From Candidatus Saccharimonadota bacterium (GTDB lineage: Bacteria > Patescibacteriota > Saccharimonadia > UBA4664), in the NCBI GenBank assembly GCA_019352195.1, contig JACAFG010000001.1, forward strand, positions 130,485-194,484: 64,000 nt of DNA, written 5' to 3'. The notes under the pieces were generated by a model. It saw only the letters and a program-made list of their open reading frames with translations, did not search any database and was not told the origin of the DNA. The translations under genes and the position numbers were made by a program. Every line of letters begins with the position of its first letter. The first letter of the stretch is position 1. Below, piece after piece: positions 28,546 through 47,363 of this stretch.

Positions 28546-28575
28546 TTGACAAGCCCGCGACATACGTCCATAGTA
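28546..28575 (+). promoter_or_regulatory. Candidate sigma70-like promoter (TTGACA-N17-CATAGT) directly upstream of ATG 28576
   Basis: A perfect -35 hexamer is read in the sequence but the -10 is weak. The transcript would be near-leaderless. Confidence 0.25.
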
Positions 28576-29337
28576 ATGGCAAAGCATAACAGGTTTCAAA
28601 AACTGCTTATGAAGCAGATCTTTCTTTCACTTGGTCTCTGCTCACTCCTAAGTTTAGTGGGTATCGCTGGCGTTTCGGCGCTTAGTGTGGGCACTGCTGC
28701 GGCTGCTACCAACCCCAATTGTACTTCCAACGGTCCCGATCCAAGCCTAGGTACCGACTTTGTTACCTATAGCATTCCTACCGCCGGCACGTATACCATT
28801 TGGACGCGCATGATGGCCGATGTGCCCACCGATAACTCGTACTATTTGCAAATAGATTGTGGCGCACCTATTAGCGTGGGTGGTACCAACCTCACCGCAG
28901 GTGCTTGGTCTTGGGTTGATTACAAGGATGGCAACACCTCAACCAAGATTACGGCCACGCTCAGCGCTGGCAGCCACACCTTTAATCTCACTGGCGAAGC
29001 TCCCAACGTTATTGTCGACCGGGTGATATTTGCGACCGATCCCACCTGTGTGCCGACGAGCACCGGTGACAACTGTGCTATAGCTGCCACGGCGACACCC
29101 ACTGTTACACCCACGCCCGCCCCCACAGCTACGGCCACCCCAACGCCAACCGCTTCGGCTACACCGACACCATCGGGAGTTACCGGTGACGTTAACGGCG
29201 ACAGCCGTGTCAACGTAGTCGACCTTTCGCTCCTGCTCGGTAAGTGGAATACCAACTACGCATCAACCGACCTCAACCGCGATGGCACGGTCAACGTTAT
29301 CGACCTATCGATTCTTCTCGGACACTGGACTGGTTGA
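28576..29337 (+). CDS. Secreted protein with beta-sandwich N-domain, Pro/Thr linker and C-terminal dockerin-like double Ca-binding repeat
   Basis: Signal peptide MKQIFLSLGLCSLLSLVGIAGVSA. Linker TPTVTPTPAPTATATPTPTASATPTPS. Dockerin type-I-like repeats DVNGDSRVNVVDLSLLLG and DLNRDGTVNVIDLSILLG. Confidence 0.6.
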   Translation: MAKHNRFQKLLMKQIFLSLGLCSLLSLVGIAGVSALSVGTAAAATNPNCTSNGPDPSLGTDFVTYSIPTAGTYTIWTRMMADVPTDNSYYLQIDCGAPISVGGTNLTAGAWSWVDYKDGNTSTKITATLSAGSHTFNLTGEAPNVIVDRVIFATDPTCVPTSTGDNCAIAATATPTVTPTPAPTATATPTPTASATPTPSGVTGDVNGDSRVNVVDLSLLLGKWNTNYASTDLNRDGTVNVIDLSILLGHWTG

Positions 29338-29738: not shown

Positions 29739-29814
<76 letters not shown>

Positions 29815-30062
29815 TATAGTCATTTTTACTGCGTTTTAGCGCAATATAGCATTACATCAAGAGCTGAGAGGCTATGTTTGATTTGATTCAGCACGCAGCT
29901 AAGTAGCGCTAACAATAAAATATAAACAGACAACCACTGGCACCAAAGCGTTCAGAAGTGCCATCAATCCACAAAGCGCCATCACTAGCTTCCTCTGGAG
30001 GTCTTTCTGTCTTGGTAGGTTCTATAAAGGGCGTAGATATTGACCAAGATCGTAGCTCCGAA

Positions 30063-30081
30063 TACTGATAACATATCAGTA
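30063..30081. promoter_or_regulatory. Perfect palindrome TACTGATA-aca-TATCAGTA (operator-like) upstream of the first cassette gene
   Basis: Read directly in the sequence. A second 8-bp palindrome TGATATCA lies at 30095..30102. Confidence 0.3.
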
Positions 30082-30109
30082 CAGGGTCGTAGTCTGATAT
30101 CATAAGCTC

Positions 30110-30433
30110 ATGGATCACAAAGACCAGCAAAGCCCGCAACCATCCGAACGTGAGGGCTCAGAGCGTAGTAATACCGAAATTGATACCACAAAAGACCTGG
30201 AACGAATGGCTTTGGCCTCTGATTGGGCTCGAGCCGCGCACGACGTAGCCGAAACTACGCAAAACCCCGTCGCACTGCGCCTCGTTAAGAACTTCCTTAC
30301 GGATAGTGCCTTGGGGCATGAGACTCCGAATGGCGTGAGAAAGGTGGCGTCCTCAAGTGATAACCCCCCGAGAGTGGTGTTGGTCCCCGTTCTGCCGGTT
30401 GATTGTGATGTAAACGACCGGACTCGCGCTTAG
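30110..30433 (+). CDS. Hypothetical hydrophilic protein (cassette A, gene 1)
   Basis: 107-aa ORF with no motif. Its stop abuts the start of the next ORF (TAGTTGGCGCATAATGG context). Confidence 0.35.
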   Translation: MDHKDQQSPQPSEREGSERSNTEIDTTKDLERMALASDWARAAHDVAETTQNPVALRLVKNFLTDSALGHETPNGVRKVASSSDNPPRVVLVPVLPVDCDVNDRTRA

Positions 30434-30976
30434 TTGGCGCATAATGGAGGTCAAGCAGCCGCCTATTATGAAGGATCGCCGGGTTTCGTCTCGCTAAATG
30501 GGCGAGACGCAGTTGATCCTACCTGGAAAGGTATTTTGCTTTTGCACGAATTGGCACACGCAGAAGCGCATGATATGCAGCAGCGCAGGGGTGAAGATTA
30601 TAAAGAATCAGGCTGGTGGGACGAAGAGGTTGAAGTTTTTGCCTTTGAGCATGAGCTTATGGCAAAATTAGGTGGCGAATCATATGAAGTGTATGTAAAC
30701 GAGCAGCTCGAACAGTTTCTAGCAAAATACAATGATAGCGGGGTAGCTACAACAGGAGCTACGATTCCTCAGCTAACCGACGACGATCGCATCGAAGATG
30801 TTTTCGGCCCTAGCCTATCCGAGTGGGAGAGGAAGATCCGTAAAACAGCGGTTTGGTTTGATGTAGTTTATCGCATGTTTGACCGCAAATATGGCGAGCA
30901 CTCCCAACGGGACAAAAGAGGCTTCACAAAGCTTGTGTATGATCTCAACCGTAAAGACCGAGAGATCGAAAATTAA
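30434..30976 (+). CDS. Hypothetical protein with HExxH motif, a putative zinc metallopeptidase (ImmA/IrrE- or SprT-like)
   Basis: LLLHELAHAEAHD contains HELAH, with a downstream Glu-rich region. 180 aa. Confidence 0.35.
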   Translation: MAHNGGQAAAYYEGSPGFVSLNGRDAVDPTWKGILLLHELAHAEAHDMQQRRGEDYKESGWWDEEVEVFAFEHELMAKLGGESYEVYVNEQLEQFLAKYNDSGVATTGATIPQLTDDDRIEDVFGPSLSEWERKIRKTAVWFDVVYRMFDRKYGEHSQRDKRGFTKLVYDLNRKDREIEN

Positions 30977-31074
30977 TGTTTCGATTTGTATCAAATATTT
31001 GAAGAACCCTTAGTTGGAAACTTGAACCTTAGCTCACAACTTAAAGGGCATAGCTAACCCCACCCCCTGGCTCC

Positions 31075-31117
31075 GAGCGTAACCCAGTGCTAACAGACAC
31101 GACAATGCTCCACCAAA
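31075..31117 (+). repeat. Repeat R1: gagcgtaacccagtgctaacagacacgacaatgctccaccaaa, ending in the tRNA-Ala(GGC) 3'-end core atgctccacca
   Basis: Near-identical to R2 at 31784..31826 and related to R3 at 33991..34033. Its last 11 nt match tRNA 3' end positions 29804..29814. Confidence 0.8.
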
Positions 31118-31148
31118 GCAAAAACCCGGCCTTGTGCCGGGTTTTTGC
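31118..31148 (+). terminator. Intrinsic terminator hairpin after R1 (aaaaacccggc-cttgt-gccgggttttt)
   Basis: GC stem with a T-tract; because it also has an A-tract it is potentially bidirectional. Confidence 0.7.
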
Positions 31149-31350
31149 TTTGATAGTACGATCGGGATCGAATGTCGCGGGTTCGGTGACCGAGCGCCGT
31201 CTCGACGTGACAGTCTTCGAGACGAGGCACGAGAGAGGTGGGGAGGCCGCCTGTGGCAGGCGAGACACATCCCGTTATGCTCCGCCGACGTGCTCATACT
31301 TAAAGCCCCGAAAGGGTCTTTTCGATATAACAGCAAGGCTGGTACGCCTG

Positions 31351-31599
31351 CTAAGCTGCCTTTTCAACTAAGTCTATCCGTTTTTCTACGATATTGTATT
31401 CGGGAGTATGCTCAATGGTGGCCTCTATATCTGGCTGCTCGTGATCGGGAAAAACGACGAACCTTGCAATGTCCTTCGTAATTCTTTGGTACTCATCGAT
31501 ACGAAGTGGTATCACTCTGCCACAGTTAAGATCGGAGCATTCGCATCTAAAGTTTAGGGTTATGCTCTTGCCCGTGTCGCCCGGTGCTATTTCTTTCAC
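31351..31599 (-). CDS. Hypothetical small protein (cassette B)
   Basis: 82-aa ORF with CECSDLNC. It is the only substantial ORF between R1 and R2. Confidence 0.3.
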   Translation of the reverse strand: MKEIAPGDTGKSITLNFRCECSDLNCGRVIPLRIDEYQRITKDIARFVVFPDHEQPDIEATIEHTPEYNIVEKRIDLVEKAA

Positions 31600-31691
31600 T
31601 TTGTCAGCGAGTGAATCATTTCGACTCTGTAAGATAAACTCGTTTTCAGTCCACCTTATACCCCCCTATTTAGTGACGACTATATTAACAC

Positions 31692-31715
31692 AAACATAAA
31701 CATAAACATAAACCA
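31692..31715. repeat. Hexanucleotide microsatellite (acataa)x4
   Basis: aacataaacataaacataaacc read directly. Confidence 0.85.
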
Positions 31716-31783
31716 TAAGCCTTAGCTTTGTCAGCTTTGATGGCGACAATCACGGAGCATGGCTAACTTCAATCTCCGCCTCT

Positions 31784-31826
31784 GAGCGTAACCCAGTGCT
31801 AACAGACACGGCAATGCTCCACCAAA
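31784..31826 (+). repeat. Repeat R2 (copy of R1), ending in atgctccaccaaa
   Basis: 41 of 43 nt identical to R1. Extended similarity begins at ccttagct (31720), which also precedes R1 at 31027. Confidence 0.8.
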
Positions 31827-31870
31827 ATATCTTATTTGTACGCCTATGAGGCTAATAACGCGTCCACTCG

Positions 31871-31906
31871 ACACAAGCACCGCATTGCCGGTGCTTGTGT
31901 TTTGTT
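31871..31906 (+). terminator. Intrinsic terminator hairpin after R2 (acacaagcaccg-cattgc-cggtgcttgtgt + tttgtt)
   Basis: 12-bp stem followed by a T-tract. Confidence 0.65.
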
Positions 31907-32073
31907 GTGTGGTTGAGGCGTAAGCGGGTTCGAGTCTCCTAAGGTCTCTTAAATACATTTGAGCGAAACCAGGTAGTGGCATAAATATGACACAATTTGC
32001 CTGGACTGATTAGGACATCTCTGTTATAAGATGTTCAGTTCTTACTCGTTCTTTTACAACCAGGAGTGAAACC

Positions 32074-32844
32074 ATGACTACGCCCGACAGGATCCGCCCT
32101 CGTTCGCTGGTTACGGCCGGCCGCAAGCCGCTTATTGTTCGTACGGCTAGCGGCCAGCTCGCCACGCCGAAGCCAGGCGAACGCATTACCCTGGATGATG
32201 CCAAGAGGCTGGTGGATGTCGTTTTTGCATTCGACACGACCGGCTCCATGTCCAGCAAGCTTCAGGGCTTGCAAAATTGTATGGCGGAGTTCATCCAGGA
32301 AATCGTCAAATTTCTGCTGGACTGGCAGTTCTCCCTCGTACCCTTCGGAGACCTAACGGTCCCCGGCGACAAGATCGTCGACAATCTTCCGTTCGTCAAC
32401 GATGCGGAGGCGGCAATCCGGATGATCCGGAGCGCTCCGCACTTCAGCGGCGGCAGCAATACCGGTGAATCTTCGCTCGAAGCGATGCAGGCGGCGATGT
32501 TCAAGCCGTACCGCAAGGGTGCGGTCAAGGTGATCGTTTTGCTAACTGATGAGCCTCCTCTCACGAGTCGGCAGCTCACGACCGAGGTGATCAATCTGCA
32601 GCTGCAGCAAAGGGAGTTCATCTGCTTTGTGGCTTCACCGTCTGGCCACGGCTATGAGGCCTTGGCCCACGACAACGGCGGCAAGTGGTACCCCATCGGG
32701 AGTTCCCTCAACACGGCCGACCTGCTGCAGTTCCTTCGCCAGCTACTCAAGAATGTCTCGCGGGTGTCCAATGACGTCCACCGCTTAGGCTGGGGATCCG
32801 TGGCTCGCTATCTTGCCAATCCTGATCGCAAAGTCCTGGAATAG
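32074..32844 (+). CDS. von Willebrand factor type A (vWA) domain protein, cytoplasmic, with intact MIDAS
   Basis: VVFAFDTTGSM is the DxSxS-type MIDAS motif, with SGGSNTGESSLEAM and VIVLLTDEPP motifs. No signal peptide. Confidence 0.75.
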   Translation: MTTPDRIRPRSLVTAGRKPLIVRTASGQLATPKPGERITLDDAKRLVDVVFAFDTTGSMSSKLQGLQNCMAEFIQEIVKFLLDWQFSLVPFGDLTVPGDKIVDNLPFVNDAEAAIRMIRSAPHFSGGSNTGESSLEAMQAAMFKPYRKGAVKVIVLLTDEPPLTSRQLTTEVINLQLQQREFICFVASPSGHGYEALAHDNGGKWYPIGSSLNTADLLQFLRQLLKNVSRVSNDVHRLGWGSVARYLANPDRKVLE

Positions 32845-32853
32845 GAGGCCTCG

Positions 32854-33777
32854 ATGTCCGTCCGCGCCAACAACCCTAACGCTGATTTCTATGTGCGGCT
32901 CGAGGTTGACGAAGACTGCACATCAGATCAGCTCAAGGCGTCCTATCGCAGGCTCGCCCACAAGTTGCACCCCGACACCAACCCCGACCCAGTTGCAGCC
33001 GAACAATTTAAGCTTGTCTGCTTGGCTTACGAAACGCTCGGTGACCCAAGTCGCCGGGCAGAATACGACCAACTGCGACAAGATCATTATCTCTCACAGC
33101 CGCCAATCCTCCGTCTCAGCGAAGTTTCGGTGGACTTTGGTTCGGTCCGGGCCGGAGAGAAAGTAGACCGGGTCGTATACATCTACAACGATGGCGGCGA
33201 TGGGGTGGGCGAGAATCTGGAGTGCACCACCTCCCCGATCTCAGGACCGTTTTGGCTTGTCGACGTTGCGGGGTTGGACGATTCTGATCCGGCCGACGCG
33301 ATTGGCAAGCTTGTGTTTACGACGGCGGTCGGCGCGAACGAGTTAGCTAGTGCGATCCAGCAGGAGATCCTGATCCACCTCATCAGTCGCCCTGACGTTT
33401 CTTCCCGGACTCTCGGATTGAAGGCAGAAGTAATTGAATCGCTTCGAGTAGCCCCCGCTTCATTTGGTGCCGTCACTTTCGACCATGCGACCGGGGTATC
33501 AGGTACTTCTCGAGACGGGACTTCGGCTCCGTATCGCCCTTATGTACGCTCCGGGACGTCGGCAACATCAGAAGCGCCTCGAATGATAACCGCACTCGTG
33601 GCGTGCTTGGCATACATCTGCGGACCATTCTTAACTATCTACTACGTCGTCAACGGAGGACATGCATCAGCGCCCATGCACAGTGCATGGCAAGGCCTGG
33701 TGACCTGGTGTTGCTTCGGTTGGCTGACTTCGTGTTTCTTGGTTGTCCCGATTATCTGGGAGTACATCGTCGATTAG
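32854..33777 (+). CDS. J-domain (DnaJ-like) protein with C-terminal double TM anchor
   Basis: N-terminal DFYVRLEV...YRRLAHKLHPDTNPD...FKLVCLAYETLGDPSRRAEYD is a J-domain with the HPD motif. The C-terminus has two hydrophobic helices. GGAGG SD lies 5 nt upstream and the start is 10 nt after the vWA stop. Confidence 0.75.
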   Translation: MSVRANNPNADFYVRLEVDEDCTSDQLKASYRRLAHKLHPDTNPDPVAAEQFKLVCLAYETLGDPSRRAEYDQLRQDHYLSQPPILRLSEVSVDFGSVRAGEKVDRVVYIYNDGGDGVGENLECTTSPISGPFWLVDVAGLDDSDPADAIGKLVFTTAVGANELASAIQQEILIHLISRPDVSSRTLGLKAEVIESLRVAPASFGAVTFDHATGVSGTSRDGTSAPYRPYVRSGTSATSEAPRMITALVACLAYICGPFLTIYYVVNGGHASAPMHSAWQGLVTWCCFGWLTSCFLVVPIIWEYIVD

Positions 33778-33919
33778 GAGCCACGTACGGCACTTCTAGG
33801 CTGTCCTGCCCGTCCTTGTGAGGCAGCTCATCCATGATTAAGAGTTGGCGAGTGCAGGTGGCTGGGTGAGCCAGGGGCATCCGGAACATCCCATCAACTC
33901 ATCTGCCACGTTAGATTAA

Positions 33920-33947
33920 GGCCCCCGGCGCTACGGCGTCGGGGGCC
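33920..33947 (+). terminator. GC-rich hairpin after the J-domain gene (ggcccccggcg-ctac-ggcgtcgggggcc)
   Basis: About 12-bp stem, but the downstream U-tract is weak. Confidence 0.45.
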
Positions 33948-33990
33948 TATTACATGCAGAAGAAGATACTCGGTTCTGCGCCTGGCCAAC

Positions 33991-34033
33991 TCCCGCTTCG
34001 CAGCGCAACGCAGTGCTAACAGAGCACACGATG
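33991..34033 (+). repeat. Repeat R3 (diverged copy): cagcgcaacgcagtgctaacagagcacacgatgctccaccaaa
   Basis: Shares cagtgctaacaga...atgctccaccaaa with R1 and R2 and is followed by terminator 34037..34070. Confidence 0.7.
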
Positions 34034-34036
34034 CTC

Positions 34037-34070
34037 CACCAAAATAAACACCCGAGCCCCAACCTCGGGT
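34037..34070 (+). terminator. Intrinsic terminator after R3 (acacccgag-ccccaacc-tcgggtgt + ttcttttg)
   Basis: Stem-loop with a T-tract. Confidence 0.65.
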
Positions 34071-34117
34071 GTTTCTTTTGGTTTCAGAGCCATAAATACT
34101 CCTGTACAATATCGCTT

Positions 34118-34603
34118 ATGGATAATACCCCGTTAGTTGACCAGTTGCGTGGCTACGCTCGCCGCGGTGTCAGCTTCGCCGTTGCTCGCGACGCGCTAGG
34201 TCAGGCCGGATGGAGCCAAGCCGAAATCGAGGCTGCAGCTGAGCAGTTTCCGTATGATTTAGTTCAACATGGTGCCGACGTAGATGGAGACGCCAATTCA
34301 TCGAGTGAGGCAGCTGCTATGGCACTGGGCGTCGCAGCCTTAAACGATCAGCGCAGTGATGCGCGTGATGTAGCTATTGCAGATGGTTTGGATGGCGGCA
34401 TGGGACCTGATCTCCAGTCGCAAAGTTATTACGAATCGAAGTTTTATGATGACATCGGTATTCCTTGGTACGTCTGGATCGGCGTACAGTTTGGTATAGG
34501 CGCTTTAGCTTATGTCCTGAATTTGCCAGGCTGGGTTACAGTAGTAGCCGTCGTATGGCTCGCAGCATATACCCTCTATAAGGCATACCAGCGCTTCCAT
34601 TGA
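34118..34603 (+). CDS. Hypothetical protein with C-terminal TM helices
   Basis: Start set at ATG 34118 after R3. The C-terminal hydrophobic segments are WYVWIGVQFGIGALAYVL and VTVVAVVWLAAYTLY. Confidence 0.4.
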   Translation: MDNTPLVDQLRGYARRGVSFAVARDALGQAGWSQAEIEAAAEQFPYDLVQHGADVDGDANSSSEAAAMALGVAALNDQRSDARDVAIADGLDGGMGPDLQSQSYYESKFYDDIGIPWYVWIGVQFGIGALAYVLNLPGWVTVVAVVWLAAYTLYKAYQRFH

Positions 34604-34848
34604 CGTTGATAGAATTTAGATGTGTTATTAGACCACGCTGAATTGTGTGTCTGGATAAGATTAGTTTGTATAGTACAGCGCTATCAGAACATATAATGCT
34701 CTACCATTGAGTACTGATTATGCTAACTGTACTTTTCTCAAGGCTGAAATAGTGCTTCTAATATAATCACTCGTTTCTCAGCTAACTATAAGCTTAGAAA
34801 TTGAAGATGCCGATTATTTAGACCTTACTGTGCATCTGTAGGCGCGGT

Positions 34849-44000: not shown

Positions 44001-47000
44001 ATGAAGCGTTATAATCCGTCCGAAATCGAGCCCAAATGGCAGCAAACCTGGACTGACACTCAACTTTACAAGGTGACGGAAGACTCGTCGCGGCCCAAGT
44101 ACTACATGCTTACCGAGTTCCCGTATCCGTCGGGCGATGGTTTGCACGCAGGCCACATCCGCGAGTACACCGTGGGCGATGTTATCGCTCGGCACAAGCG
44201 TATGCAGGGCCACAACGTGCTCTATCCCATGGGCTACGACGCTTTTGGTTTGCCAACTGAAAATTACGCTATCAAACACAAAATTGCCCCGCAAGTTGCG
44301 ACCGCCACTAACGTGGCCAACTTCCGCAGACAGTTCGATCAACTCGGTTTGTCGTTCGACTGGAGCCGCGAAGTAAACACTACTGATCCAGATTATTACC
44401 GCTGGACCCAATGGCTGTTTTTGCAATTTCTGAAAGCGGGACTCGCTTATCAGGATGAAATTGCCATCAACTGGTGTCCCAAAGAAAAGACTGGTCTCGC
44501 TAACGAAGAAGTCGTCAACGGCAAACACGAACGTTGTGGCACGCCGGTCGAGAAAAAGTTTCTCAAGCAATGGTTATTTCGCATTACCGACTACGCTGAT
44601 CGTCTCATTGATGGCCTAAAAACCGTCGATTTCCCCGATAAAATTGCCAACCAACAGATCAATTGGATTGGTCGCTCCGAAGGTGCGGAAATTGATTTTG
44701 CGATCAAAACTCAAACCGAACCCACCTTCTATCAATTCTTTGAGCCGGGCAAAATCAAGCCCGAGCATCCTTTTGTTGAGCGTGATGGCATTTTGGCGAT
44801 TGTGAAGCATTGGAATGAAGACAAATATCTTGGCTTACGTTGGAAGCAGGTGGACTGGGAAACATTTATCACTGGCGGTATAGAAGCCGGACAAACCCCC
44901 GAGACTGCTGCCCTCGCAGAAATCCAGCAAGAAACTGGGTATATCAACGCACGACTCGTAAAAGATCTCGGCCGCATGCACTCGCAGTTTTTCCATGTGC
45001 CAAAAAACCAAAATCGTCACGGGCACTTTAAGATGCTGTATTTTGAGCTCCAAGATGACAAACGCGTGACGGTAGCTGACGAAGAACAGTCGATCCACGA
45101 ACCGGTATGGCTCACTCGGGCCGAAATTGCCGACTTTAAGCTGCCATCGTCCCACCGATTTATGTGGGAGCAGTTGGCCGGCCGACCAAGCGACTCCGTG
45201 CGCGTTTACACTACGCGCCCAGATACATTGTTTGGTGTGACATATTTGGTCTTGGCACCCGAGCATCCGCTGATAGAACGCTACATTCACCAATCGTCTA
45301 ACGCCGAAGAAGTGAGCATCTACGTTAAGGCGGCTATCGGCCGCGCCGAGCTGGAGCGTCAGGAGGCTAAGGAAAAAACTGGGGTCGAACTGAAGGGAAT
45401 TAAGTCCGTTCATCCGCTTACCGGCGAAGAGCTTCCAATCTGGGTGGCCGATTACGTCTTGGCGGGCTACGGCACTGGCGCCATTATGGCCGTACCGGCC
45501 CACGACGAGCGCGACGGCGAGTTTGCCGCCCAATTTGACCTGCCGATAATCCCAGTGGTCGAGCCTGTTACGGGTAACCCGTTACCCGACGAAGAGTATC
45601 GCCGCAGCATTGTGGCTCTCGTGCGCAATCCCAGAACCAATGAAGTCCTCTCGATCAACTGGGGCCAACAGGGTGGTAACATTTTCATTGGCGGCGGTAT
45701 AGACGAAGGTGAAGACGTTGTTGAAACGGCCCGCCGCGAAGTACTAGAAGAGACTGGGTATATAAATCTCAAACTTATTGGCCAATCTGAAAAAATTCAT
45801 CACCACTACATAGCGCACTCCAAGGGCGGTATTAAGCGCGGGATCGATGTTTGGGGAGTCTATTTTGAACTGGAAAACGATGATCGTGACGAGCAGAAAT
45901 TAGAAGCCGACGAGGAAGGTAAATTCACGGTTGAGTGGCTGCCATCGACCAAAGTTGAGCAGCTTGTCAATGACGAACTGCACAAGTATGTTTACGAAAA
46001 ATTCATTGGCCAAAAATGCTACATTGGCTATGGCCCGCTCGTAAATTCAGGCGAGTTCGATGGTCTCCAAGGTGACGAAGCCAAAGCCGCCATAGTGTCC
46101 AGGCTCGAGCAAATGGGTGTCGGCAAAACTGCCAAAAAGTACAAGCTCCGCGACTGGGTTTTTAGTCGCCAGCACTATTGGGGTGAACCAATTCCGGTCA
46201 TTCACTGTCCTAAAGACGGTGTTGTGCCGGTGCCCGACGACCAGCTGCCAGTCACTCTGCCGCCAGTTGAATCCTACGAACCTACCGACACCGGCGAGTC
46301 GCCCCTCGCTGCCATGACCGATTGGGTCAATGTCGAGTGTCCACAGTGTGGCGGTCCGGCCAAGCGCGAAACCGACACTATGCCCAACTGGGCAGGGTCA
46401 AACTGGTACTACCTGCGCTATATGGATCCGCGCAACAACCAAGCATTTGTCGGCGAGAAAGCGCTCGACTATTGGCAGCATGTGGATATGTACTTGGGTG
46501 GCATGGAGCACACCACGCTCCACTTGCTTTACTCACGTTTTTGCCACCAATTTTTGTACGACCAAGGCCTTGTGCCAACCCCTGAACCTTACGCTGCCCG
46601 CCGTGGGCAGGGGATTGTATTGGCTGCCGATGGCCGCAAAATGAGCAAATCAATTGGCAACGTCATCAATCCCTCCGATATTGTTGCCAAGTACGGCGCC
46701 GACACTATGCGCCTCTACATTTTATTTATGGCGCCGTATGACGAAACGACACCCTGGAGCGACGAGCGACTGGGCGGCGTCAACCGCTTTGCCTACCGCG
46801 TCTGGACCCTCGTGCAGCAATTAGCTGCCAACACTACACAAACCGGCGATCCCGATGGCACCTTTGTCACCGAAGTTGATCGCTTTGTTCACAAAACCCT
46901 CAAAAAGGTCCACGATGATCTCCACGACATGCGCTTTAACACGGCCATTGCAACTATGATGGAACTCCTCAATAATCTCAGCACCCCGGCCATCAACACG

Positions 47001-47363
47001 CGCATTATCGAGCCGCGTCACGCCGATTTGGCCACCCGCACCGCCCGCACCTTCGTTTTGATGCTAGCCCCATTTGCGCCCTATATTGCCGAAGAACTCT
47101 GGCACGAACTTGGCAGTGACGACAGTGTTCATACGGCCGCGTGGCCTAGCTACGATCCGTCGCTCATCAAAGACGACGTCGTAGAGCTAGCGGTCCAAGT
47201 TAACGGCAAACTCCGCGGGACCATTTTGGCCGCCGTCGAAGCGTCCGAAACCGAGATCGTGGCCGCTGCTAAAGACAACCCCAACGTCGCCAAGTTCCTA
47301 ACTGGCACAATCGCTAAAACCATCGTCATCCCGCGTCGGCTAGTTAACTTTGTAGTGAAGTAG
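44001..47363 (+). CDS. leuS: Leucyl-tRNA synthetase with two NUDIX-fold insertions in the CP1/editing region
   Basis: HIGH-type motif (PYPSGDGLHAGHIREY) and KMSKS present; editing domain TTRPDTLFGV; C-terminal domain conserved. It is 1120 aa against about 800-860 typical; the two extra inserts are described in the findings. Confidence 0.9.
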   Translation: MKRYNPSEIEPKWQQTWTDTQLYKVTEDSSRPKYYMLTEFPYPSGDGLHAGHIREYTVGDVIARHKRMQGHNVLYPMGYDAFGLPTENYAIKHKIAPQVATATNVANFRRQFDQLGLSFDWSREVNTTDPDYYRWTQWLFLQFLKAGLAYQDEIAINWCPKEKTGLANEEVVNGKHERCGTPVEKKFLKQWLFRITDYADRLIDGLKTVDFPDKIANQQINWIGRSEGAEIDFAIKTQTEPTFYQFFEPGKIKPEHPFVERDGILAIVKHWNEDKYLGLRWKQVDWETFITGGIEAGQTPETAALAEIQQETGYINARLVKDLGRMHSQFFHVPKNQNRHGHFKMLYFELQDDKRVTVADEEQSIHEPVWLTRAEIADFKLPSSHRFMWEQLAGRPSDSVRVYTTRPDTLFGVTYLVLAPEHPLIERYIHQSSNAEEVSIYVKAAIGRAELERQEAKEKTGVELKGIKSVHPLTGEELPIWVADYVLAGYGTGAIMAVPAHDERDGEFAAQFDLPIIPVVEPVTGNPLPDEEYRRSIVALVRNPRTNEVLSINWGQQGGNIFIGGGIDEGEDVVETARREVLEETGYINLKLIGQSEKIHHHYIAHSKGGIKRGIDVWGVYFELENDDRDEQKLEADEEGKFTVEWLPSTKVEQLVNDELHKYVYEKFIGQKCYIGYGPLVNSGEFDGLQGDEAKAAIVSRLEQMGVGKTAKKYKLRDWVFSRQHYWGEPIPVIHCPKDGVVPVPDDQLPVTLPPVESYEPTDTGESPLAAMTDWVNVECPQCGGPAKRETDTMPNWAGSNWYYLRYMDPRNNQAFVGEKALDYWQHVDMYLGGMEHTTLHLLYSRFCHQFLYDQGLVPTPEPYAARRGQGIVLAADGRKMSKSIGNVINPSDIVAKYGADTMRLYILFMAPYDETTPWSDERLGGVNRFAYRVWTLVQQLAANTTQTGDPDGTFVTEVDRFVHKTLKKVHDDLHDMRFNTAIATMMELLNNLSTPAINTRIIEPRHADLATRTARTFVLMLAPFAPYIAEELWHELGSDDSVHTAAWPSYDPSLIKDDVVELAVQVNGKLRGTILAAVEASETEIVAAAKDNPNVAKFLTGTIAKTIVIPRRLVNFVVK

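What the first reader, a model, noticed from the sequence alone, without database searches (positions are those of the whole stretch)
32074..33777. Tightly coupled cytoplasmic vWA (MIDAS-intact) gene plus membrane-anchored J-domain gene as a mobile two-gene module
A 256-aa vWA protein with an intact MIDAS (DTTGSM...SGGS...LTDE) and no signal peptide is followed 10 nt later, with a GGAGG SD, by a 307-aa protein. That protein's N-terminus is a canonical J-domain (HPD motif, ...YRRLAHKLHPDTNPD...) and its C-terminus forms two TM helices. The pair sits between repeat copies R2 and R3 with its own terminator, so it is cassette-borne. A J-domain implies recruitment of host DnaK/Hsp70 to a membrane site. 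vWA MIDAS domains are recurrent sensor or adaptor modules in NTP-dependent conflict and defence systems. I do not recognise this exact vWA plus J-TM pairing as a described system.
Basis: partly seen in the sequence, partly recalled or inferred. Interest (0 to 1): 0.75.

Follow-up and report, generated by a model that had tools for sequence, protein, structure and literature searches.

The report
Conserved vWA plus J-domain gene pair
Two tightly linked genes in a Saccharibacteria chromosome (a metal-site vWA protein and a membrane-anchored Hsp70 co-chaperone) form a pair that recurs across several bacterial phyla and moves between genomes as a unit; I found no description of it, its function is untested, and nothing found here links it to phage defence.

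Summary
Window 32074-32844 encodes a 256-aa cytoplasmic vWA protein with an intact MIDAS. Nine nt later, 32854-33777 encodes a 307-aa protein with an N-terminal J domain (HPD), an ASH/HYDIN-type Ig-like beta-sandwich and a C-terminal two-helix membrane hairpin.

The pairing is not chance. A J-domain gene lies next to this vWA family in 31 of 43 distinct loci (Actinomycetota, Chloroflexota, Dormibacterota, Patescibacteria). It occurs in 0 of 46 loci with distant vWA genes and 0 of 80 viral vWA loci. vWA and J-domain distances co-vary (Mantel r=0.82).

The conserved core is vWA + J + ASH. The membrane anchor is optional, and no third gene is conserved.

The pair moves horizontally. Its GC deviates from host GC in both directions, close relatives sit in different contexts, and the Saccharibacteria clade nests among Actinomycetota. 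The flanking repeats are real but are decayed tRNA-Ala copies, and they do not accompany the pair in the two close relatives checked.

I found no defence signal: no PADLOC hit, no effector domain, housekeeping neighbours, and no close relatives in phage, plasmid or viral-contig collections.

Best reading: a DnaK-coupled vWA adaptor module, the Hsp70 counterpart of MoxR-vWA pairs. I found no description of it in the literature searched. The mechanism is inferred, not shown.

The parts
29739..29814 (+). tRNA-Ala(GGC) gene. It is the anchor of the variable islet that holds the pair.
   Evidence: ARAGORN and Rfam.
31048..31117 (+). Repeat R1, a decayed tRNA-Ala-like copy. It keeps the 5' acceptor/D-stem remnants and the 3' ATGCTCCACCA but lacks the T arm. 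A terminator hairpin follows it.
   Evidence: the repeat finder; alignment to the tRNA; fold.
31757..31826 (+). Repeat R2, 86% identical to R1. Its ends GGAGCAT...ATGCTCC can form an acceptor-like stem. A terminator follows at 31870-31901.
32003..32073 (+). Conserved leader of the operon. It carries an extended -10-like TGtTATAAG at 32022-32030 and the Shine-Dalgarno AGGAG at 32062-32066. The leader is shared with relatives L172 and L173, and similarity is lost upstream of it.
   Evidence: Alignment A7 and direct reading of the sequence. Promoter function is inferred.
32074..32844 (+). vWA gene (256 aa). MIDAS residues are D54/T56/S58 (32233-32247), G131-E132-S133 (32464-32472) and T158-D159 (32545-32550). 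The family also has a hallmark loop VPFGDLTVPGD and a C-terminal GxGSVxRYL helix.
32844..32848 (+). GGAGG Shine-Dalgarno for the J gene. It overlaps the vWA stop codon, which suggests translational coupling.
   Evidence: Sequence reading.
32854..33777 (+). Gene for the J-domain/ASH/membrane-hairpin protein (307 aa).
32884..33072 (+). J domain (residues 11-73). HPD is at residues 39-41 (32968-32976).
   Evidence: Pfam DnaJ, E=2.6e-19; NCBIfam matches cover the J domain only.
33100..33453 (+). ASH/HYDIN-type Ig-like beta-sandwich, about residues 83-200. It has the PPxLxLS..VDFG...IYNDGG motif and an invariant Trp (W134).
   Evidence: Profile A3 against PDB sequences: FAP81 1e-7, FAP47 4e-7, FAP65 9e-7, Hydin 5e-11. 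Weak hits to NCBIfam choice-of-anchor D (0.005) and, in relatives, to Pfam PF22544.
33583..33762 (+). Two-helix membrane hairpin: TM1 about residues 244-266 and TM2 about 279-303. The short connecting loop GGHASAPMHSAWQG is conserved in L173.
   Evidence: Hydropathy; AF2 secondary structure; L173 translation.
33919..33948 (+). GC-rich 13-bp hairpin downstream of the J gene, with a weak U tract.
   Evidence: Fold: -31.9 kcal/mol, z=-5.2. The terminator scan did not call it.
33974..34043 (+). Repeat R3, 64% identical to R1, with a decayed 5' half. A canonical bidirectional terminator follows at 34046-34074.

Best explanation
This is a two-gene operon that encodes an Hsp70-coupled vWA module.

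Gene 1 makes a cytoplasmic vWA protein. Its MIDAS metal site and the neighbouring loops are highly conserved, which points to one conserved protein ligand.

Gene 2 makes a specialised J-domain protein. The N-terminal J domain should dock on the cell's own DnaK and trigger its ATPase. An ASH-type Ig-like domain should provide partner or client binding. In this lineage a C-terminal two-helix hairpin fixes the protein to the inner face of the membrane.

Together they would direct DnaK's remodelling activity to whatever the vWA/ASH pair holds. MoxR AAA+ ATPases use vWA partners as adaptors in the same way.

What is shown: domain content, conservation of the pair, co-evolution of the two genes, and horizontal mobility. 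This includes likely acquisition of the Saccharibacteria clade's copy from Actinomycetota-like donors, and insertion in this genome into a tRNA-Ala-proximal variable islet.

What is inferred: that vWA and the J protein bind each other, that DnaK is the engine, and the identity of the target.
For: Pair conservation:
- A J-domain gene is adjacent to the gene in 31 of 43 distinct loci of the close vWA family, usually within 31 nt or overlapping.
- No J-domain ORF occurs anywhere in 46 loci with distant vWA genes or in 80 viral vWA loci.
- Gene order differs between clades (vWA then J, or J then vWA) but the linkage persists.
- vWA and J-domain distance matrices correlate: Mantel r=0.82, p<=5e-4, 30 pairs.
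- All J partners share J plus an ASH-like beta-sandwich. TM helices and extracytoplasmic tails vary.

Link to Hsp70:
- The J domain is canonical here, and HPD is present in 26 of 30 partners.
- In one lineage the vWA protein carries a fragment of the Hsp70 nucleotide-binding domain at its N-terminus (PF00012 profile positions 229-305, E=4.8e-9; by my own knowledge of DnaK this is subdomain IIB). This is an independent link to the Hsp70 cycle.

Conserved ligand:
- The vWA family is strongly conserved (23 invariant positions in 94 sequences, including the MIDAS residues). The ASH region is not (23% mean column identity). This argues for a conserved endogenous ligand.

No own ATPase:
- No ATPase is encoded in the module and no third gene is conserved across phyla. 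The energy source must therefore act in trans.

Mobility.
Against: - No physical interaction was tested or modelled. The J-protein AF2 model is unusable (pLDDT 42) and no multimer prediction was possible.
- Four of 30 J partners have lost the His or Pro of HPD, including the second-closest full-length relative (HQD in L001). DnaK activation is therefore dispensable in some lineages.
- Twelve of 43 loci lack a detectable adjacent J gene. Most of them belong to an Anaerolineae-type subfamily.
- Discovery ran from vWA to J. The reciprocal census (J+ASH proteins without vWA) failed for technical reasons.
- No dnaK gene is in the window. Its presence in this genome is assumed.
Confidence: 0.55

Rival explanations
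1. Anti-phage or conflict module. The vWA protein senses an invader protein through its MIDAS. The membrane J protein then acts as effector, by titrating or misdirecting DnaK or by perturbing the membrane, and this causes dormancy or abortive infection.
For: - Patchy, horizontally transferred distribution.
- vWA domains and J-fused Ig-like repeat proteins occur in published conflict systems (PMC7159879).
- DnaJ takes part in phage sensing by bNACHT25 (PMC12169576, listed).
- The Streptomyces copy lies near TraG-like and MT-A70 genes.
- The two-helix hairpin with a conserved loop could be more than an anchor.
Against: - No PADLOC hit for either protein.
- No recognisable effector domain. The TM hairpin is absent in whole clades.
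- Neighbours are housekeeping genes in five annotated loci.
- No close relative in phages, plasmids or IMG/VR.
- The putative sensor surface is highly conserved, not diversifying.
- The pair sits in a syntenic core position in one lineage.
Confidence: 0.12
2. Auxilin-like arrangement. The vWA protein is itself the client. It self-assembles or locks onto a partner through its MIDAS, and the J protein brings DnaK to take that assembly apart. The pair would then be a switch, not an adaptor for third-party clients.
For: - Strict 1:1 linkage and co-evolution of the two genes.
- A conserved N-terminal basic-hydrophobic segment in the vWA protein (RKPLIVR here, alignment) resembles a DnaK-binding peptide. 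This resemblance is my inference only.
- The fused Hsp70 nucleotide-binding-domain fragment in P0086.
Against: - AF2 places the N-terminal segment in short strands with pLDDT 75-84, so it may simply be part of the fold.
- There is no evidence of vWA self-assembly.
Confidence: 0.2
3. Two unrelated housekeeping genes that happen to be neighbours. The J protein would be an ordinary DjlA/CbpA-type co-chaperone.
For: - Both domains are common.
- The pair is syntenic next to central-metabolism genes in L001 and the P0046 contig.
Against: - Adjacency recurs across four phyla with varied gene order, and is absent from 126 control vWA loci.
- The architecture is not that of DjlA (J domain at the N-terminus, TM at the C-terminus; DjlA model E=0.098).
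- It is not DnaJ or CbpA either: no Pfam match beyond the J domain.
Confidence: 0.03

Closest known systems
MoxR AAA+ / vWA chaperone pairs (RavA-ViaA, CbbQ-CbbO, NorQ-NorD, BchI-BchD)
   Same: A MIDAS-bearing cytoplasmic vWA protein is encoded next to a component of an ATP-driven remodelling machine. vWA is thought to act as the adaptor to the target (PMC7159879, PMC3893208; otherwise my own knowledge).
   Different: No AAA+ gene is present. The linked partner is a J-domain protein, so the engine would be Hsp70 acting in trans. The vWA protein is a small single-domain protein of its own family.
GAP1-N2 GTPase-centric conflict systems with HSP70, GrpE and DnaJ-fused FNIII-repeat proteins (Kaur et al. 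2020, PMC7159879)
   Same: They combine a J domain fused to Ig-like beta-sandwich modules with Hsp70 involvement. vWA proteins occur in sister themes. They are found in Actinomycetota, Chloroflexota and Firmicutes, often close to the membrane.
   Different: Those systems are defined by GAP1 and GTPase genes and encode their own HSP70 and GrpE. None of these lies near the pair in any locus examined. The Ig-like domain here is a single ASH-type domain, not FNIII repeats.
Membrane-anchored bacterial J proteins (DjlA; DjlB/DjlC with HscC)
   Same: A J domain tethered to the cytoplasmic face of the membrane localises Hsp70 activity. DjlB and DjlC have an N-terminal J domain and a C-terminal TM (my own knowledge).
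   Different: DjlA has the reverse topology and does not match (E=0.098). No hscC-like gene is adjacent. Those proteins have no ASH domain and no vWA partner, and the TM is dispensable in this family.
TerY-P triad (TerY-like vWA + PP2C phosphatase + Ser/Thr kinase)
   Same: A stand-alone MIDAS vWA protein in a small mobile module (PMC11090510).
   Different: No phosphatase or kinase is linked, and there is no PADLOC hit.
tRNA-targeted genomic islands built by tandem accretion (e.g. tycheposon arrays, bioRxiv 10.1101/2020.12.28.424599)
   Same: An intact tRNA gene is followed by cargo segments separated by direct repeats that end in the tRNA 3' end.
   Different: No integrase lies in or near the islet. 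The repeats look like whole decayed tRNA copies, not simple att sites. Segments are only 0.6-2.2 kb, and the repeat motif was not found elsewhere.

Membership tests
vWA superfamily | Rossmann-like vWA fold | tested here: met
vWA superfamily | Intact MIDAS (DxSxS...T...D or the beta-I-like variant) | tested here: met
   D54-T-T56-G-S58, G131-E132-S133 and T158-D159 are all invariant in 94 family sequences. Thr replaces the first Ser. Metal binding itself was not tested.
J-domain proteins | J domain with an HPD tripeptide between helices II and III | tested here: met
   Pfam DnaJ, E=2.6e-19, residues 11-72, HPD at 39-41. Stimulation of DnaK ATPase cannot be tested with these tools.
Class A/B DnaJ and CbpA | Gly/Phe-rich region, zinc-finger domain (class A) and DnaJ C-terminal client-binding domains | tested here: not met
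   Pfam returns only the J domain for this protein at E<=1. All NCBIfam DnaJ/CbpA matches cover residues 9-78 only and fall far below cut-off.
DjlA | N-terminal transmembrane segment, C-terminal J domain, match to the DjlA model | tested here: not met
   The J domain is N-terminal and the TM helices are C-terminal. NCBIfam DjlA E=0.098, 12 bits against a cut-off of 162.
ASH / HYDIN-type (PapD/MSP-like) Ig domains | Sequence-profile match to ASH-type beta-sandwich domains | tested here: met
   Profile of 18 partner proteins against PDB sequences gives single-stretch hits: FAP81 1e-7, FAP47 4e-7, FAP65 9e-7. There are supporting weak hits. The fold was not confirmed because the model is poor.
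MoxR-vWA systems | Adjacent MoxR-type AAA+ ATPase gene | tested here: not met
   No MoxR-type AAA+ ATPase family was reported for any called gene in the annotated neighbourhoods of six loci. No third family is conserved across phyla.
GAP1-N2 GTPase-centric conflict systems | GAP1 and TRAFAC GTPase genes, with own HSP70 and GrpE in the relevant theme | tested here: not met
   No such gene appears in the neighbourhoods. The definition is taken from PMC7159879.
TerY-P triad and known defence systems | Linked PP2C phosphatase and Ser/Thr kinase; match to PADLOC models | tested here: not met
   PADLOC gave 0 families for both proteins at E<=1. No kinase or phosphatase is adjacent.
Integron gene cassette | attC recombination sites and an IntI integrase | tested here: not met
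   The repeats align to tRNA-Ala, not to an attC-like imperfect palindrome. No recombinase was found among the annotated ORFs from 15 to 47 kb.
tRNA-targeted integrative island | tRNA gene at one border and direct repeats of its 3' end | tested here: met
   tRNA-Ala lies at 29739-29814. R1-R3 all end in ATGCTCCACCA, identical to the tRNA 3' end.
tRNA-targeted integrative island | Site-specific integrase in the element | tested here: not met
   No integrase domain in the ORFs between 29.8 and 38 kb.

The most novel reading that the evidence does not exclude
The pair defines a previously unrecognised third class of chaperone-vWA machine, alongside the MoxR-vWA and GTPase-centric systems. It would be a minimal, self-mobile module that carries no ATPase of its own. 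Instead it captures the host's essential Hsp70 through a dedicated J+ASH protein and aims it at a target chosen by a MIDAS vWA protein. Some lineages add an Hsp70 nucleotide-binding-domain fragment or a transmembrane sensor tail. It has spread among Terrabacteria, including from Actinomycetota into their Saccharibacteria epibionts. Its role could be in conflict or dormancy, or in assembly of a membrane complex.
Probability: 0.3. Interest if true: 0.75.

Novelty: new variant of a known kind. Interest (0 to 1): 0.5.

Why it matters
J-domain proteins decide where Hsp70 works. Bacterial specialised J proteins with known partners are few.

A J protein that is genetically locked to a MIDAS vWA protein across four phyla would give a concrete, testable example of Hsp70 being aimed by a vWA adaptor. 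Until now vWA adaptors have been tied to AAA+ ATPases.

The module is only two genes and occurs in cultivable Streptomyces, Actinoplanes and Leifsonia, so genetics and biochemistry are feasible.

Its apparent transfer from Actinomycetota into Saccharibacteria would also add a case of gene flow between epibiont and host lineages. That Saccharibacteria live on Actinomycetota is my own knowledge.

Tried and rejected
- A profile search with the ASH-region alignment in the 5.8-billion-protein index returned only 2 hits. A metagenome scan with the J-protein alignment returned none. The reciprocal census (J+ASH without vWA) therefore could not be done.
- The AF2 model of the J protein, from a 3-sequence alignment, was unusable (pLDDT 42). 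No fold search was run on it.
- P0185 looked like a natural vWA-J fusion. Its sequence shows a frameshifted stretch between the two parts, so I treat it as a merged gene call, not a Rosetta-stone fusion.
- Clustering all neighbouring ORFs to find a conserved third gene gave only antisense shadow ORFs and clade-level synteny.
- The repeat motif was not found in the fetched loci or in metagenome contigs. Rfam has no family for it.
- tRNA proximity in other loci (4 of 14) is about what small genomes give by chance, so I did not use it as evidence.
- DjlA, DnaJ/CbpA, TerY-P, MoxR-vWA, GAP1-N2 and integron-cassette assignments were each tested and rejected (see the membership table).
- Phage, plasmid and IMG/VR searches found only distant generic vWA genes.
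Full report
1. What is in the sequence

Window 32074-32844 (+) is a 256-aa ORF, and 32854-33777 (+) is a 307-aa ORF in the same frame. Nine nucleotides separate them. GGAGG at 32844-32848 overlaps the first gene's TAG stop and lies 5 nt before the second ATG.

Protein 1 matches Pfam VWA (E=3.8e-10). Protein 2 matches DnaJ (E=2.6e-19, residues 11-72) and nothing else.

NCBI already holds both proteins as 'VWA domain-containing protein' and 'J domain-containing protein' from a Candidatus Saccharibacteria bacterium contig of 259 kb. The rest of the window is ordinary core chromosome: MetRS, AlaRS, MnmA, FtsA-like, MltG, Obg, an EPSP_synthase-family (PF00275) enzyme, a Mur ligase and LeuRS. No dnaK gene is in the window.

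2. The vWA protein

Ninety-four family members align with 42% mean column identity and 23 invariant positions.
- The invariant positions include D54, T56 and S58 (a DxTxS form of the MIDAS first loop), G131-E132-S133 and T158-D159.
- A family-specific loop, VPFGDLTVPGD, is conserved, as is a C-terminal GxGSVxRYL helix.
- There is no signal peptide.
- The family is small. A profile search over 1.84 billion representatives gives 105 proteins at E<=1e-30.

3. The J protein

- The J domain has the basic helix II, HPD at 39-41 and the helix III/IV signature.
- Eighteen partner proteins from other loci align downstream of the J domain. They share a beta-rich domain with the motif PPxLxLS..VDFG....IxNxGG and one invariant Trp.
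- A profile of that alignment hits ASH-type Ig-like domains of ciliary proteins in the PDB (FAP81 1e-7, FAP47 4e-7, FAP65 9e-7, Hydin 5e-11). Weak NCBIfam 'choice-of-anchor D' and Pfam HYDIN/VesB-like hits support this.
- The C-terminus has two hydrophobic helices, about 244-266 and 279-303. The 12-residue connecting loop, GGHASAPMHSAWQG, is nearly identical in relative L173.
- The architecture is therefore J, ASH, low-complexity linker, membrane hairpin, with both ends in the cytoplasm. The topology is inferred.
- The AF2 model of this protein is unusable (pLDDT 42).

4. Is the pairing real?

Yes.
- Gene neighbourhoods of vWA homologues show an adjacent DnaJ-domain gene in every case looked up by exact protein: L001, L002, L006 (Streptomyces), L007, L010, L172, L173 and the P0046 contig.
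- A scan of one genome per species returned 34 loci of the close family (L012-L045) in Actinomycetota, Chloroflexota, Dormibacterota, Patescibacteria (WWE3, Levyibacteriota) and two odd MAGs.
- With a J-domain HMM built from the hits, 31 of 43 distinct loci have the J gene next to the vWA gene. It is mostly within 31 nt or overlapping by 4 nt.
- As controls, none of 46 loci with distant vWA genes and none of 80 viral-contig vWA loci has a J-domain ORF anywhere within about 5 kb.
- Gene order differs by clade. It is vWA then J in Actinomycetota and Saccharibacteria, and J then vWA in Dormibacterota and some Chloroflexota.
- The distance matrices of the two proteins are correlated (Mantel r=0.82, p<=5e-4, 30 pairs).
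- Loci without a J gene are mainly an Anaerolineae-type subfamily, two Actinomycetota, and one locus (L038) that lacks a J gene upstream of the vWA gene.

5. What is core and what is optional

- All partners have J + ASH.
- Dormibacterota versions are soluble 173-aa proteins with nothing else.
- Actinomycetota and Patescibacteria versions add one to three TM helices. Several add a long tail after the TM with weak PQQ/BamB-like propeller signal.
- HPD is present in 26 of 30 partners. L001 has HQD, L015 RPD, L016 YPD, and L006 has lost the motif.
- No third gene is conserved across phyla. No MoxR-type AAA+ ATPase, GTPase, kinase, phosphatase or Hsp70 gene is linked.
- In one lineage (L002-L005) the vWA protein carries an N-terminal 80-residue fragment of the Hsp70 nucleotide-binding domain (profile positions 229-305, E=4.8e-9). 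By my own knowledge of DnaK, this is subdomain IIB, the lobe that GrpE contacts.

6. Mobility and the 'cassette'

- The pair has GC 0.56-0.60 against 0.44-0.50 in its immediate flanks.
- Across 20 loci its GC deviates from the host's in both directions: +0.05 to +0.10 in low-GC hosts and -0.04 to -0.10 in high-GC hosts. This pattern fits repeated transfer.
- The closest relatives sit in different contexts: beside shikimate kinase in L172 (77% identity) and before MntP in L173 (68%).
- In L001 and the P0046 contig, however, the pair lies in the same position between pentose-phosphate genes and pyrophosphatase. It is therefore also inherited vertically in a lineage.
- About 75 nt upstream of the vWA start are conserved in the window, L172 and L173. 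This stretch includes an extended -10-like TGtTATAAG and the Shine-Dalgarno, and similarity ends upstream of it. The transferred unit thus appears to carry its own promoter.
- In a neighbour-joining tree (no bootstrap), the window, L172, L173 and L001 form a clade nested among Actinomycetota sequences. They lie far from other Patescibacteria. This fits acquisition from Actinomycetota.

The repeats R1-R3 are real.
- They align to the tRNA-Ala(GGC) gene at 29739-29814. They share the 5' acceptor/D-stem remnants and an identical 3' ATGCTCCACCA, and they lack the T arm.
- Each is followed by a terminator hairpin.
- The layout is: tRNA-Ala, 1.2 kb, R1, 0.64 kb, R2, 2.15 kb (the pair), R3, 0.65 kb, then a weak remnant at 34696.
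- No recombinase is nearby.
- L172 and L173 lack such repeats, and the motif was not found elsewhere.
- The pair therefore sits in a tRNA-proximal variable islet. The repeats are a feature of this site, not of the module.

7. How it most likely works

The J domain can only act through an Hsp70, by established J-protein biology. The module has no ATPase of its own, so the cell's DnaK is the presumed engine.

The vWA protein is much more conserved than the ASH domain. This points to a conserved ligand for the MIDAS face. That ligand could be DnaK itself or a conserved cellular target, with the ASH domain as the lineage-specific link.

The closest functional analogy is the MoxR-vWA pair, in which a vWA adaptor aims an ATP-driven remodeller. 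I put 0.55 on this adaptor model and 0.2 on the variant in which the vWA protein is itself the client or switch.

The defence reading gets 0.12. There is no PADLOC hit, no effector, a conserved 'sensor' surface, housekeeping neighbours, and no presence in phage, plasmid or IMG/VR collections.

8. Comparison with what is known, and novelty

Full-text searches found no description of a vWA + J-domain dyad.

The nearest published systems are the GAP1-N2 GTPase systems with HSP70/GrpE and DnaJ-fused FNIII proteins, and the MoxR-vWA ternary systems (PMC7159879). Their defining GTPase, GAP1 or MoxR genes are absent here. DjlA, DnaJ/CbpA and TerY-P membership also fail.

I rate this a new variant of a known kind, a chaperone-vWA pairing. 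It rests on solid comparative evidence for the unit and only inferred mechanism.

Interest is 0.5. It is a clean, testable, apparently undescribed module, with no functional data and no sign of the defence role that motivated the original score.

Noticed in passing
window 29739-34720: An intact tRNA-Ala(GGC) gene is followed by three decayed tRNA-Ala-like copies (R1-R3). Each has its own terminator. They separate four short cargo segments of 0.6-2.2 kb. A further weak remnant (ATGCTCTACCA) lies at 34696. No integrase is present. The layout looks like a small cassette-like array at a tRNA site.
   Followed up: partly
window 44001-47363 (+): A 1120-aa leucyl-tRNA synthetase appears to carry a NUDIX hydrolase domain (residues 533-666, E=1.9e-26) inserted just after the editing domain.
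   Followed up: no
L002-L005, vWA gene (P0086), residues 10-87: In one lineage the vWA protein carries an N-terminal fragment of the Hsp70 nucleotide-binding domain (PF00012 positions 229-305, E=4.8e-9). Its J partner is a 596-aa protein with a weak PQQ/BamB-like signal after the TM helix.
   Followed up: partly
window 32003-32073; L172 about 780-850; L173 about 215-289: About 75 nt of upstream leader is conserved between three otherwise unrelated genomic contexts. It contains TGtTATAAG and the Shine-Dalgarno. Rfam reports no known RNA family there.
   Followed up: partly
window 33655-33696 (J protein residues 268-281); L173 J protein: The short loop between the two membrane helices (GGHASAPMHSAWQG here, GGHSSAQLHSAWQG in L173) is conserved, including two His residues. 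This suggests the hairpin is more than a passive anchor.
   Followed up: no
window 30110-30976 (+): The first segment after the tRNA holds two abutting ORFs of 107 and 180 aa with no family match in Pfam, NCBIfam or PHROGs. The second contains an HExxH motif (LLLHELAHAEAHD), so it may be a small metallopeptidase-like protein.
   Followed up: no
L001 J gene (P0002), residues 38-40; also L006, L015, L016: Four J partners have lost the canonical HPD (HQD, absent, RPD, YPD) while their vWA partners keep an intact MIDAS. Some lineages may therefore use the pair without activating DnaK.
   Followed up: partly
window 28546-29337 (+): A 263-aa secreted-looking protein with a C-terminal dockerin type I domain (E=1.4e-8) lies just upstream of the tRNA-Ala. 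This is unusual for a Saccharibacteria genome.
   Followed up: no
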